This document shows positions 1,283-34,103 of a stretch of DNA of 64,000 nucleotides, in pieces. The DNA comes from Eledone cirrhosa. Its lineage: Eukaryota. The notes under the pieces were generated by a model that was given only the letters and a program-made list of their open reading frames with translations, did not search any database and had not been told where the DNA came from. The stretch covers positions 361,894,001 to 361,958,000 of the forward strand of contig OZ024740.1 in assembly GCA_964016885.1 (NCBI GenBank), read 5' to 3'. The position numbers were made by a program, and so were the translations under genes. Position 1 is the first letter of the stretch. Each line of letters starts with the position of its first letter.

Positions 1283-1330
1283 AACATTTGAAAAGATGGC
1301 TTTTGCAGACCCATCGAAACCGGTCATTTT
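1283..1330 (+). ncRNA. Minimal type I hammerhead-like motif, U3-A8 core variant
   Basis: aacat-TTGAAAA-GATGG(11 nt)CCATC-GAAA-CCGG-TC-atttt: 5-bp stem II, palindromic ACCGGT stem III, GUC site, stem I with one mismatch. Confidence 0.6.
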
Positions 1331-1549
1331 TTATACCCTTTATTATTTCCTTACCTTATAAAATTATGTTTTTTCACAAAAAAGTATTCTGTCTCTTATA
1401 TATTCCATGTGCCATTACCAACCTCAATTTTCTCTATAACCTTCGTTTTGTGTAGAAAATTACACTTTTCATATATATATATATATATATTATTTCGTTT
1501 CTGAATTTGTTTAGCAAGATTCTTTATCTGAAATCGTGTGTTGAAACCG

Positions 1550-1981
1550 ATATTGTTATACTTTGGGAGGGTCATGTTGCCAATAAGAAACACACGCACC
1601 AGTTGCTTTCACTTCAATTTATTATAATAAATTTATAAATTTATAAATTTCTGGTTGGTTGGTTGGTTCCACAACCAGATAGTTGTTTATATATTGTCAT
1701 AGTTCTTTCGTCACACACTCTGTGACGAAATGTTTCAAAATGGCGTAGGACAGAACAAAGGAGAGGCATAGAAACAAAGAAAGGAATCCCCAGTCACTGA
1801 AGAGGTCACAGAGTGTGTGACGAAAGAACTATGACAATATATAAACAACTATCTGGTTGTGGAACCAACCAACCAACCAGAAATTTATAAATTTATAAAT
1901 TTATTATAATAAATTGAAGTGAAAGCAACTGGTGCGTGTGTTTCTTATTGGCAACATGACCCTCCCAAAGTATAACAATAT
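1550..1981. mobile_element. Fold-back element with ~177-bp inverted arms carrying a hammerhead (Penelope-like non-autonomous)
   Basis: 1550-1726 is the reverse complement of 1805-1981 with no mismatch seen by eye; near TA tracts. The same terminus recurs at 2031-2141, ~35307-35380 and ~39993-40050. Confidence 0.8.
1793..1835 (+). ncRNA. Minimal type I hammerhead ribozyme
   Basis: gtca-CTGAAGA-G-GTCAC(agagtgt)GTGAC-GAAA-G-aa-C-TA-tgac: stem I gtca/tgac, 5-bp stem II, 2-bp stem III, CUA site. Confidence 0.75.
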
Positions 1982-2030
1982 ATATATATTAGTTTTGCCG
2001 TTTTTGATATGAAATCGTGTGTCGAAGCAA

Positions 2031-2141
2031 ATATTGTTATACTTGGGGAGGGTCATATTTGTGTAATAATACAGTGAGTGTGTTCTGTTATTAATTCTGG
2101 CAATATTATTATACAAATATGACTCTCCCCAAGTATAACAA
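2031..2141. mobile_element. Short MITE-like hairpin with the same termini as 1550-1981
   Basis: ~30-bp inverted ends TATTGTTATACTTGGGGAGGGTCATATTTG ... CAAATATGACTCTCCCCAAGTATAACAATA. Confidence 0.7.
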
Positions 2142-29847: not shown

Positions 29848-30605
29848 TAATAATGATTTCTACTTTAGACACAAAGCCATCAATTTTGGTGGAGGGGAAA
29901 GTCGATTAAATCGACCCCAGTGCATTACTGGTGTTTTATTTTATCAACTTTGTAAGGATGAAAGGCAAAGCTAACTTCGGCGGGATTTGAACTCAACGAT
30001 GGTTTATAATAATTGTTCCTACTTTTGACACAAGGTCAGCAATTATTCCAGTGGATTACTGGTGCTTTATTTTATCGACCCCGTAAGGATGAAAGGCAAA
30101 GTTAACCTCGGTGGGATTTGAACTCAGACCGTAAAGGGGCGTAACTCTTTGCTGCAAAGGATGACGTCTGACCTTCTACCGATACTGCCAATCCACCGCC
30201 CTCTGCCAATCCAATGATTTCTAATTTAGTTACCAATTTTGAGGAGGTACAAGTGAAGTATTTTATTTTATCAACATTGGAAGGACGAAAGACAAAGTTG
30301 ACCTCGACTGGATTTGAATTTAGAACATAAAGAGCATAAATACCACAAAGCATTTTATCCGACGCTCTAACAATTCTTGCAAACAACAAATGATCAATTA
30401 TAATATTGATTTCTGATTTAGACACAAGGCCAACAATTTGGGTGAGGGAGGAGAAGAAAGTCGATTAAATCGCTTCCAGTGCGTTACTGATACTTTATTT
30501 CATCGATCCCGTAAGGATGAAATGCAAAATTGAGCTCGATGGGATTTGAACTCAGAACGCGGAAAGTCGTAACTAAATACTGCAAAGCAAATTTTCATAC
30601 GTTCT
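29848..30605 (-). mobile_element. Cluster of four same-orientation family A SINEs
   Basis: Four reverse-complement cores (GGATGAAAGGCAAAG...GGATTTGAACTC). Confidence 0.85.
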
Positions 30606-31034
30606 AATTATAATAATAGAAACAGTGATTTGTTAGATTGGTGTAAAGATTCCAAATACTACAGTCAATGGTGAAGGTCTTATTTATTTATATATACTAT
30701 ATAAAAAGAATGTAGTAAATGGTATGTCGAGTTATATATATCGTTATTCATGCGCATGGATAAGATAAAAGTAGGCTGCAAAGTTGTTGCTAGATTGGGC
30801 TTGGACATTGCCTCTGTACTGGTATTTAGAAAGTTCAAGGTCTTTTATCAATAATTCGAAGGAACACGACCAACAAATCTTTTAAAGGTAATTGATTAGA
30901 TAATGTAATTCCGTACAATATTGAGTAATCAACGACACTGGGAGATGAGCAATTAATCTCCTACATTGTTTAAAAAGTTATTCAAGATATGGTGATAGCA
31001 TCTTTTGGGTACTATCTAAAACTATATTATCTGA

Positions 31035-31295
31035 CGATGTGAGATCGATTCTCAGCAGCGTGTTGTGTTTTTTAGCAAGGCACATTATTTCATGTTGCTC
31101 CAGTCCGTTCAGCTGGAACAAAAATAAGTTGTATCTGTAATTCAAAGGCCCGGCTTGTCACACACTGTATCACACCGAATCTCCCTAAGAACTTTGTTAA
31201 AGGGGCACGTATCTGTGGAATGTTAATTCCACGAGCAGGCTGTTCTGTTGTTCGAACAATATGTACACTCGTCGTTGTAACCAACTGAGGTCCAA
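31035..31295 (+). mobile_element. Family B SINE body
   Basis: Matches the shared family B body. Confidence 0.7.
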
Positions 31296-33039
31296 CAATA
31301 ACAGTAAGAATGTATCTCTTTAACTCAATTGTTGGATAGCTCTATTATTTATATTGTTTGTAATTTTAACTTCCATTTGGTCGTACTTGCAATAACACAA
31401 TATATTTAACAGTTCAGTACGCTCTGTTGCAACACAAGATCAACTTGTAATAGTTTCCTCTTACAAGTCATAAACTTCACGAGACAACTTAGGTTAAACC
31501 CGATTGTTTGAAAAACAAACCTTTTTGTTTATATATGAAATATATTTAATGCAATTTTCTGCCAGAGGAAATATTAAGTGAATATTAATTATTATCACAT
31601 AAATCAGTGAGAGCACGCAGTCATTTCTACATACATTCAGTAATTAACAGAAGTTTAATATAATTCTATTTGCTAAGAAACTCTCTACTGCCTGCTTGAT
31701 TATATAATAGATATATTTTTGGTATCATAAAGGTAATTAATTCAATACTGGTGATACATCAAATTAGAAGTAGCATATCCCATATCGTATATCACATATC
31801 TGCTGTCTTCTGTTCTTGACAAAAATATAAATAGCATTTCTTGAGGGTTATTTTAGTCTGAGTGTGAGTAAGTACTTCACAAAGAGCTGTTTGGTGTAAG
31901 TCCAAAATAAGAGAAATTACTGAGTATATAAGATTGCTACTGATGTAGACAGAGAATAGATATGTAAGGAAGGAAGGAAATGGAAATTTCTTCTCGGGTA
32001 TGATTGAGGATGTGAGATTTTAGAGACAGCAGCAGTAAGCCAGTCTGATGTATTACATCTAAGCAACAAACAGTCAAGGTGTAAACGAGATGCTGAAACA
32101 AAGAAAAATATCAGAAGATACTAACAACAATCTGAAGGGAAATAGTAGGAATATGTCTGGAGTTTAAAAGCTTTCGCCAAGATTATTTCGCCTCCTTGCT
32201 GTTGTCTGCTTCTCGATAAATTATATTCCACCATCTGCTGTTCCCAATACTAATAGCATTAGTTCTAATGTGCAAGCGCGTGGCTTAGTGATTAAGGTGC
32301 TCGGCTCATGATTATGTGGGTAACGAAAAGAAGACAGGCAAGAATTTGGTTGGAGGTGGACGATATGTAACTTATTATTTCAGAAGAAAAGTAAGTAACG
32401 ATGGAAAAGTAGAGTGAGGGGTCAACAAACCTCTATATGATAAAATATTTCTAGCAGTGTTATATACCAACGCCGAGAGAAGATAAGTTTAACAATTGAA
32501 CGATAACAATTTTGTTCTGGTTAATTCGATTTTGAAAGAGCTTTATACAGTATGCATAGGCATTTTGAAGAAATCGTAGAGAGAATAACAAGAAATACCC
32601 AGAGGAAATTCACAGACACGTGCACACACACACATGCATATATATATATATATATATATATATATATATATATATATAAGAAGCAAAGAAAATTTCAATG
32701 ATACGAAAGATTTCCTGGTGGAAGTTCAGGTGTACTCCAGGTTGGTATCCAGTTTCGGGGTGAAAATCTATTAGAAAATCCGTCAACATGAATGGACCTG
32801 TTATTTTTATCTAAAGACGTTTTTTTTCCAATTCCAACCCGCCCGTCCCCTAAATCTATCTTATTTCTCATTCTTTCTTCTGATGAAAGACTAGCGTCCA
32901 AAACAGCAAGACCCGCTTCCTGCTATATCAAACGTTAACCTAATATATCCCTTCCATATACTGTACCGATTGTGTTGTAATTTCTGTTTACCTTTACATA
33001 TATATATATATATATTAGAAATTGATTTTTTTTTTTTAC

Positions 33040-34103
33040 AAAATGAAAAGAAAAACGAGATGTCCTACATGAGTGAAAGTATAACGAAAAAAGATGAAAT
33101 CAAAAATGCAACTGGAGTCTTTTTAAGAATATTTATTTGGTTCCTTTACCGGTTTCGCAGTTCTTGTGTTTTTCAAAAGTAGAATTAAGCTGGAGGGTTT
33201 GTGGTTTTTCTCACATCTGGTTGGTGTTCGAATGTTACATCTGTTTTATATGGAAAAAAAGTGACTCGAAATGCTGGGTTTTTAGAAAAGTAATTTTGTT
33301 GGTTGATGACTGTCATGTGAATAAGTATAATAACTTTCGCGTCAGTTCGCGTTACAAACTTCTTATTATATTTGCCTTTAAAAAAAAAGGGGGGGGGGGG
33401 ATCAGATTGTTTTTTTCATATATGAGTGAAATTAGGTTGGTTGATGCAGTCACGTGAATAAGCGCATCAACTTTCGCGCCAGTTTGTGTTTGAGTTTCTT
33501 TTTACTTAAAAAAGTGGCTCAAAAAAGTTTTTTTTTTAATAAATGTAATTTGATTGGTTATAAATGAAATTATGACTGTCACGTGAACAACTACATTAAA
33601 TTTCGTGCCCGTATTTGGGAATTATTTTGGTAGCCATTTAGAGAATGTTGTGCCAAACAAAAGATAATGGTCAAGAAAAAAAGGATGGGGAGAATTGTTC
33701 TGGTTCAGCTGATGTGTCAAAATTCAGACTTTCTATTGAAATAAAGAAAGTAGAGATATGTATTTTTATTTGTGTGCTGGTGTGTGTGTAGGAAAATGAT
33801 TCTATTAGTAGAAATGGGGGAGGGAGTTATGTGTGTGTGTGTGTGTGTGTGTGTGTGTGTGTGTGTGTGTGTGTGTGTGTGTGTGTGTGTTATATGTGTG
33901 TGTGTATATGTGTGTGTGGGAGTATAGTTGGCATGTTAAGATGGAGAGAATATATATTTGTGTGTGTGTGTGTGTGTGTGTGTGTGTAGGAAAATGATTT
34001 CGTTAGTAGAAATGGGAGAGAGAGTTATGTGTGTTTGGGGGGTATGGTTAGCATGTTAAGGTGTTAGAGTATTAACGTATGTTAAGGTTTATTTAGCTCT
34101 GTA
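33040..34103 (-). mobile_element. Non-coding Penelope-like element: promoter-like repeats upstream of an HHR-like motif
   Basis: HHR-like motif at 33143-33181 (-); three CCAAT/GTCACGTG/TTTCGCG modules at 33295-33610; shares motifs with 17790-18437 and 6475-6590. Confidence 0.55.
33295..33610 (-). promoter_or_regulatory. Three repeated CCAAT-like + E-box (GTCACGTG) + E2F-like (TTTCGCGCC) modules
   Basis: GTCACGTG at 33449 and 33578 (GTCATGTG at 33312); TTTCGCG at 33335 and 33472 (TTTCGTG at 33601); GATTGG at 33552. Confidence 0.45.

What the first reader, a model, noticed from the sequence alone, without database searches (positions are those of the whole stretch)
1283..33181. Recurrent UUGAAAA core: compensatory U3-A8 hammerhead variant in three families
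Seen: five loci in three sequence families (1288; 6502 and 33170-33176 minus; 11350 and 17930-17936 minus) have TTGAAAA where CTGANGA is expected, followed by a stem II, G(A/C)AA and AC(C/T)GGT-H. Established: C3 and G8 form a Watson-Crick pair in the active hammerhead, so C3U with G8A keeps that pair. Inference: a selected natural core variant that standard CUGANGA searches would miss. Caveat: TTGAAAA is common in AT-rich DNA and some stems are weak.
Basis: partly seen in the sequence, partly recalled or inferred. Interest (0 to 1): 0.8.

Follow-up and report, generated by a model that had tools for sequence, protein, structure and literature searches.

The report
U3-A8 hammerheads in Penelope-like retrotransposons
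The five sites are ends of Penelope-like jumping genes that carry a small, likely self-cutting RNA motif (a hammerhead) with an already published base-pair swap in its core; this animal genome holds about 36,000 copies, and one 13,000-copy family has a second core change that would likely weaken cutting.

Summary
All five motifs are at the stated places (5 found, 0.01 expected by shuffling). They are type I minimal hammerheads in the 3' pseudo-LTRs of Penelope-like retrotransposons (RT, CX4CxxC linker, GIY-YIG; (TA)n targets; inverted and tandem copies). U3-A8 is the family state, not decay: among motifs ending GAAACCGGTH the genome has 23,342 U3A8, 201 U3G8, 249 C3A8, 115 C3G8; 12,964 more are U3A8 with C13. 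The three window families are one clade nested among C3-G8 relatives, so they share one inherited change; across 31 PLE rows the label changes at least 6 times, so the swap recurs at deeper level. It is not new: Perreault 2011 and Cervera 2014 report natural U3-A8, the latter in PLE hammerheads, with UUGAAAA in its supplement. Canonical C3-G8 hammerheads remain the majority here (about 100,000). Additions: a family fixed for U3-A8 plus A13C (not found in my searches), an unrelated 316-bp tandem family with U3-A8, and a modest excess of copy 5' ends at the predicted cut in family A but not clearly in the A13C family. Cleavage is untested.

The parts
1..136 (+). C-terminal end of a Penelope-like ORF (stop 134-136); the rest lies just left of the window (L061:6803-9133, 777 open codons)
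   Evidence: frame continues from L061; Pfam RVT_1 E=4.3e-7; CX4CxxC linker read in the translation. Pfam GIY-YIG did not hit this protein at E 0.01 but hit the sister families L041 and L078.
137..1475 (+). 3' UTR / pseudo-LTR of family C, ending at (TA)n
   Evidence: 88% identity over window 1-1490 to copy L047; 3' ends at +110 and +150 from the cut in 3 and 3 of 6 pieces; inverted truncated copy at the element's 5' side (L061:5306 minus).
1286..1327 (+). Type I minimal hammerhead, family C: U3-A8, stem II GAUGG/CCAUC, loop III CCGG, 2-bp stem I; predicted cut after 1325 (GUC)
   Evidence: same core in L047, L048, L049, L061, L237.
6485..6585 (+). 5'-truncated copy of an older family A subfamily; hammerhead core 6502-6531, 7-bp stem I, weak stem II; predicted cut after 6531
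   Evidence: parent ORF of family A in L041 (RVT_1 and GIY-YIG).
11308..11504 (+). 5'-truncated family B copy between two (TA)n runs; core 11350-11380 with U3-A8 and C13; predicted cut after 11380
   Evidence: 99% over 204 bases to the upstream pseudo-LTR of tandem element L092; TRF runs on both sides.
17791..18599 (-). Family B copy of the second subfamily; core 17936-17907 with U3-A8, C13 and a changed loop III
   Evidence: 84% to 11308-11504; homology to L092 up to 18599, the limit of the query.
33015..33800 (-). Family A copy; core 33176-33147 with U3-A8; first stem II pair broken in this copy; 3' end joins (TA)n
   Evidence: 75-79% to L043 (33800 is the limit of the query).

Best explanation
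The five loci are type I minimal hammerhead motifs in the pseudo-LTRs of Penelope-like retrotransposons, likely of the Neptune type, whose U3-A8 core pair likely arose once in the ancestor of these families and is predicted to stand in for C3-G8. Shown: position 110-165 bases before the (TA)n-joined 3' end, parent RT/GIY-YIG ORFs, inverted and tandem copies, fixed U3-A8, compensatory changes in stems I and II between families. Inferred mechanism: a monomer cannot close stem III (palindrome ACCGGU); two motifs in a tandem transcript, or two RNAs, swap strands to form a 6-bp stem III and cut slowly after GUH, probably with protein help. Because nearly all genomic copies run through an intact motif, the RNA that is reverse-transcribed is mostly uncut, and cutting is occasional processing rather than a required step. 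Family B (A13C) is predicted to cut more weakly or not at all.
For: Parent ORFs upstream of the motif in families A (L041), B (L092, L073, L078, L182), C (L061, L047), E (L046, L133, L139). Two 3' ends 36-62 nt apart, the PLE 'tail'. Counts 23,342 / 201 / 249 / 115; independent decay would give about 2 C3G8, and most of the 100 listed C3G8 matches belong to a separate family. Between six family representatives 14-17 of 17 core letters match while most flanks are at shuffle level and ORFs are 51-75% identical. Inner stem I pairs read TT/AA in A and B, AT/AT in C, D, E, AA/TT in E2; N7 differs from A in 3,393 of 23,342. Tree: five own-genome U3A8 ORFs one branch (SH-aLRT 100), nearest outside row C3G8 with the same CCGG loop. 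Family A copy starts are commoner around the cut: 264 matches against 165, 164 and 164 in three control windows; +1 is the modal start, 10 of 30 loci.
Against: No cleavage assay. The hammerhead fold is not the minimum-energy fold for any window copy and stem I is much weaker than in canonical relatives. In a type III hammerhead scan only the G3-C8 swap showed strong rescue (PMC9901934, passages). A 13,000-copy family spread with A13C, a position whose mutation costs 10-100 fold (PMC4075628, passage). The excess of starts at the cut may partly come from TA/A microhomology with (TA)n targets, the listings were classed by eye for the first 100 rows only, and family B shows only 93 against 59 (about 51 against 38 after removing duplications). 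The tree is the quick one (no bootstrap) and the AU test did not finish. 'Neptune' rests on the linker motif and target, not on a tree with named references.
Confidence: 0.88

Rival explanations
1. The motif descends from a hammerhead but in this clade no longer cuts; it is kept as a folded or palindromic signal for RNA dimerisation, ORF-protein binding or template choice, and U3-A8 and A13C mark relaxed catalysis.
For: Stem I reduced to 2-4 bp; A13C fixed in 12,964 matches against 122 with any other letter; nearly all copies derive from uncut RNA; in the anole PLE, hammerhead mutants did not affect insertion in vitro (PMC11167929, passages).
Against: All other catalytic positions are kept across families whose ORFs are 51-59% identical, N7 and H17 vary exactly where the hammerhead allows it; 3 and 8 change together across lineages; excess of starts at +1 in family A; a well-formed canonical-type hammerhead in a 316-bp tandem family also uses U3-A8.
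Confidence: 0.25
2. One reading: U3-A8 arose independently in each of the three window families.
For: Pseudo-LTR flanks of C are unalignable to A or B; the swap does recur elsewhere (at least 6 label changes on 31 rows).
Against: Families A, B, C, E, E2 form one branch with no C3-G8 member inside; A and B share alignable upstream sequence; all share the CCGG loop.
Confidence: 0.07
3. Chance matches or decayed canonical hammerheads in AT-rich DNA.
For: TTGAAAA occurs 33 times in the window.
Against: 23,342 against 63 control; single mismatches about 1% each; fixed position in PLE ends.
Confidence: 0.01

Closest known systems
Minimal hammerheads of Penelope-like elements, U3-A8 variant of Schistosoma mansoni Cercyon (Cervera and De la Pena 2014, PMC4209133)
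   Same: Type I, short stem I, palindromic loop III, place in pseudo-LTRs, close inverted pairs, U3-A8 core; the supplement lists UUGAAAA and UUGAUAA cores; about 1,300 hits there.
   Different: Here about 36,000 matches in a clade with CX4CxxC linker and (TA)n targets, a CCGG loop III, stem II of 4-5 bp, stem I of 2-4 bp, and one family with A13C.
Natural U3-A8 core covariants (Perreault et al. 2011, PMC3088659)
   Same: C3-G8 covaries to U3-A8 in natural hammerheads; the paper cites earlier in vitro activity of such swaps.
   Different: A few examples there; here fixed across whole transposon families. Its core consensus demands A13.
Neptune-type EN+ Penelope-like elements (as described in Craig et al. 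2021, PMC8557442)
   Same: RT, CX2-5CxxC linker, C-terminal GIY-YIG, microsatellite targets, 5' truncation, partial tandems, inverted copies, 30-40 bp tail.
   Different: Not placed on a tree with named Neptune or Nematis references; tail in family A is about 60 nt.
Metazoan non-LTR retrozymes (PMC7229834)
   Same: The unrelated 316-bp tandem family (L170) fits them: small non-coding head-to-tail repeats with one type I hammerhead each.
   Different: It carries U3-A8; it is not one of the five window loci.

Membership tests
Type I hammerhead ribozyme | Core C3 U4 G5 A6 N7 G8 A9 / G12 A13 A14, with a Watson-Crick 3-8 pair | tested here: met
   Families A, C, D, E: all positions kept, 3-8 as U-A, a published variant (PMC3088659, PMC4209133).
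Type I hammerhead ribozyme | A13 in family B (loci 11350, 17936) | tested here: not met
   C13 in 12,964 matches against 122 with A, G or T. Family B is a hammerhead homologue outside the consensus.
Type I hammerhead ribozyme | Stem II with G10.1-C11.1 and covarying pairs | tested here: met
   GCAG/CTGC, GCATT/AATGC, GATGG/CCATC, GATG/CATC, GCAT/ATGC across families; damaged in window copies 6502 and 33176.
Type I hammerhead ribozyme | Stem I closing the core | tested here: inconclusive
   Two inner pairs kept with compensatory changes, but only 2-4 bp in most families and no loop I-II contact recognised.
Type I hammerhead ribozyme | A15.1-U16.1, NUH cut site, stem III or palindrome for dimers | tested here: met
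   ACCGGU palindrome, self-duplex -8.3 kcal/mol; H17 is A, C or U at family level.
Type I hammerhead ribozyme | Site-specific self-cleavage | not testable with these tools
   Only an indirect genomic hint; no RNA run listed.
Type I hammerhead ribozyme | Match to an Rfam hammerhead model | tested here: not met
   No hammerhead family at E up to 10 for 3 of 3 window regions tested; the 316-bp family and a canonical copy hit HH9 below gathering score. Rfam models are built on longer canonical forms.
EN+ Penelope-like element | RT followed by C-terminal GIY-YIG in one ORF | tested here: met
   L041 has both Pfam hits; L078 GIY-YIG; L061 RVT_1 and 56-59% identity to them through the EN region.
EN+ Penelope-like element | Pseudo-LTRs, tandem and inverted 5'-truncated copies, tail | tested here: met
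   L092 and L094 tandems, L041, L043, L061 inversions; paired 3' ends.
Neptune clade | CX2-5CxxC linker and microsatellite targeting | tested here: met
   CX4CxxC in L061, L041, L078, L095; 3' ends at (TA)n.
Neptune clade | Placement with named Neptune RTs on a tree | not tested
   No named reference sequences were on hand; Nematis shares the linker.

The most novel reading that the evidence does not exclude
Family B is a natural hammerhead with three core changes (U3, A8, C13) that still cuts as a protein-assisted dimer and spread to about 13,000 copies; or, if dead, it shows at genome scale that Penelope-like elements transpose without hammerhead cleavage. Either way families A and B are a matched natural pair for the open question of what PLE hammerheads are for, and 5' ends at +1 in family A would be a first genomic trace of PLE hammerhead cleavage in vivo.
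Probability: 0.3. Interest if true: 0.6.

Novelty: new member of a known kind. Interest (0 to 1): 0.36.

Why it matters
The U3-A8 swap itself is published, so the finding is not a new core. It matters in three modest ways: CUGANGA-only searches would miss about a quarter to a third of the hammerhead-like motifs counted in this genome; the swap recurs along the PLE tree, which gives natural covariation for the 3-8 pair at lineage level; and the A13C family beside intact sister families makes the unresolved role of PLE hammerheads (needed, occasional or dispensable) testable with a few short RNAs.

Tried and rejected
Rfam scan of the whole window: the 150 rows shown of 349 were all microRNA models, mostly on microsatellites; 199 lower rows not seen. 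No RNA holder listed for a family B stretch; no evidence on expression either way. Contigs laid on families B and A: no core letter change reached the listing threshold; loose-end tables were cut and did not list the cut site, so uninformative for cleavage. Search for the parent RT of the small C3G8-CCGG family in 40 upstream stretches: two had distant RT pieces (L203, L219) only 19% alike and not collinear with the motif, so the link was rejected; the first tree had weak deep nodes. L059's upstream RT is a different PLE lying beside a family E copy (21-28% to the clade). No parent ORF was found for family D. The C3A8 'families' are an L2-like ORF stretch and another repeat without hammerhead stems. 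G17 count (62) is at decay level and says nothing. Subfamily test for constraint on the A13C motif: 0 of 28 columns differ against 16 of 173 in flanks, p=0.07, and copies were picked by the motif, so inconclusive. Viral contigs held no relative. No earlier scan notes. The 316-bp part failed; one search gave only 2 array starts, too few. AU test unfinished. Papers not held and not seen: Lunse 2017, Przybilski and Hammann 2007, Martick and Scott 2006, and one recalled PMC id.
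Full report
Observation. The window pattern gives 5 matches against 0.01 in shuffles. The window lies in a 3.0-Gb animal assembly.

Family state. With the tail GAAACCGGTH the genome gives U3A8 23,342 (reversed control 63), U3G8 201 (50), C3A8 249 (30), C3G8 115 (162). Single mismatches are about 1% each, as expected from decay after insertion; two independent changes would give about 2 C3G8, and most of the 100 listed C3G8 rows are a separate family. A further 12,964 matches have U3A8 with GCAA (control 68); in that family only 122 matches have another letter at 13 (about half T, a third A by eye in the 100 listed), so A13C is fixed. 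Counts are exact-pattern lower bounds and count both members of inverted pairs. Canonical cores are still the majority: CTGAYGA with a YNNR loop gives 105,266 (control 4,115); the U3A8 equivalent gives 56,408 (control 16,123), including decayed copies and satellites.

What carries them. Window 1-136 is the end of an ORF that continues left of the window for 777 open codons (L061), with RVT_1 and a CX4CxxC linker; an inverted truncated pseudo-LTR flanks its 5' side. Family A's parent (L041) has RVT_1 and GIY-YIG hits; family B's parent (L092) is a pseudo-LTR-ORF-pseudo-LTR tandem with two frameshifts; family E likewise has parents. Copies end at (TA)n at two alternative points: +131/+172 in B (24 and 14 of 44 pieces), +80/+142 in A (21 and 29 of 57), +110/+150 in C (3 and 3 of 6) (BLAST ends run a few bases into the TA run). 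These are the traits of EN+ Penelope-like elements in Craig 2021 (PMC8557442, passages and supplement hits), and the linker and target fit Neptune; no tree with named references was made. In tandems the pseudo-LTR runs into a short TA stretch before the ORF start, so priming from nicked (TA)n at that point is likely (inference).

Constraint. Six family representatives share 14-17 of 17 core letters while most 80-base flanks are at shuffle level (A-B and C-D flanks are partly alignable) and ORFs are 51-75% identical. Variation falls where hammerheads allow it: N7 (3,393 of 23,342 not A), H17 (A, C, U), loop II. Stem II pairs covary between families and the two inner stem I pairs switch TT/AA, AT/AT, AA/TT (20 of 23 A, 13 of 13 B, 2 of 2 C, 10 of 11 D, 13 of 19 E contexts). 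Against this, stem I is 2-4 bp, the hammerhead fold is not the lowest-energy fold of any window copy, and canonical relatives fold 7-10 kcal/mol better.

One origin here, many elsewhere. Of 83 related PLE loci from other records, 30 had a sense-strand motif under a descriptor open to all four states: 24 loci C3G8, 5 U3A8, 0 C3A8, and 2 weak U3G8 hits inside ORFs (tallied by me; Fisher p=1.2e-4; three loci are near-copies of others). On a quick tree of 31 rows (26 foreign, leaving out L292, L295, L304 and L317; 5 own) the own-genome families form one branch (SH-aLRT 100) whose nearest outside row is C3G8 with the same CCGG loop; the U3A8 label needs at least 6 changes (no bootstrap, AU test unfinished). 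So the three window families are not three events, but the swap recurs across PLEs. An unrelated 316-bp tandem family in this genome also has U3A8 (620 matches, 100 of 100 listed) in a well-formed hammerhead that hits Rfam HH9 at E 6e-6.

Function. Most copies run through an intact motif, so the template RNA was uncut (loci were mostly picked by the motif, which biases this). To look for cut templates I counted family A copies whose match begins in a 6-base window: 264 at -1..+4 against 165 (-8..-3), 164 (-18..-13) and 164 (about +42..+47). Classing the first 100 rows by eye, about 89, 41 and 48 per 100 of the first three were true 5' junctions (about 235 against 68 and 79), and +1 was the commonest start (24 of 100; 10 of 30 loci by script). 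Microhomology with (TA)n may explain part of this, and it concerns under 1% of copies. Family B1 gave 93 against 59, about 51 against 38 after removing duplications: no clear excess, low power. This is a hint of occasional cleavage in A, not proof.

Literature. Cervera and De la Pena 2014 (PMC4209133; parts 1-2 of 4 of the text and part 2 of supplement file 2; file 1 unavailable) report U3-A8 in S. mansoni PLE hammerheads, about 1,300 hits, list UUGAAAA and UUGAUAA cores, and found low activity only in multimers. Perreault 2011 (PMC3088659, passages) report natural U3-A8 and cite in vitro activity. Roberts 2023 (PMC9901934, passages) saw strong rescue only for G3-C8 in a type III ribozyme. PMC11167929 (passages): a PLE hammerhead is protein-assisted and not needed for insertion in vitro. 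PMC4075628 (passage): A13 mutation costs 10-100 fold. Also passages of PMC6765202, PMC2837043, PMC7229834, PMC3884650, PMC11014351. A fixed natural A13C family was not found in searches (0 papers; 4 papers; two read in passages here besides Perreault), but Lunse 2017, which surveys PLE hammerhead variants, was not available and may hold it; bioRxiv supplements were not searched.

Verdict. Real, correctly read as hammerheads with a compensated 3-8 pair, but a known variant in its known host class. The additions are scale, single origin within this clade, recurrence across PLEs, the A13C family and the weak +1 footprint. Interest 0.36.

Noticed in passing
L170 (G000:C1:6519900-6521900) and about 620 matches genome-wide: 316-bp non-coding tandem repeat with a well-formed type I hammerhead carrying U3-A8, inverted array ends and (TA)n flanks; retrozyme-like and unrelated to the window families, so probably a separate origin of the swap and the best construct for a monomer assay.
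   Followed up: partly
G000 genome-wide; e.g. L157-L169: About 100,000 canonical CUGAYGA hammerhead motifs in many families, including tandem arrays of about 310, 466 and 484 bp and Penelope/Poseidon-like elements with a TATA loop III.
   Followed up: no
window 1497-2059; also 35304-35384 and 39988-40087: Another repeat in inverted pairs (177 bp perfect arms 1550-1726 / 1805-1981) ending at (TA)n, with no hammerhead recognised; PLE-like architecture, parent unknown.
   Followed up: no
L031-L040, L104, L105, L200-L236: Small C3-G8 family with CCGG loop III, poor stem II and two extra bases between stem I and C3; occurs in inverted pairs; no parent ORF found.
   Followed up: partly
window 33200-33500(-) and 17960-18140(-): Upstream pseudo-LTR sequence of families A and B holds repeated TTGGCGCGAAA, TCACGTGAC and CCAATC words, resembling E2F, E-box and CCAAT promoter sites (names recalled, not tested).
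   Followed up: no
window 10855-11053 and at least 10 more places (17074, 19991, 28867, 30003, 36410, 49988, 55610, 60138): Dispersed repeat of about 190 bp at 86-97% identity, SINE-like.
   Followed up: no
window 37122-37547 (-): Fragment of a non-LTR retrotransposon ORF (RTE-like by recall).
   Followed up: no
window 34179-34274 and 26309-26426: Near-perfect long palindromes (about 95 and 115 bp).
   Followed up: no
window 4244-6218 and 62591-63220: Degenerate 17-bp minisatellite; 57-bp tandem repeat, 11 copies at 99%.
   Followed up: no
L340, L341, L342, P0013, P0044, P0045: Penelope-like ORFs with hammerheads sit in records labelled as bacterial genomes or symbiont proteins; likely host DNA in those assemblies.
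   Followed up: no
L096, L097 (G000:C1:348.86-348.91 Mb): 9.6-kb tandem duplication with at least 6 units, each with an inverted family A pair and a 187-codon frame with a cysteine-rich end.
   Followed up: no
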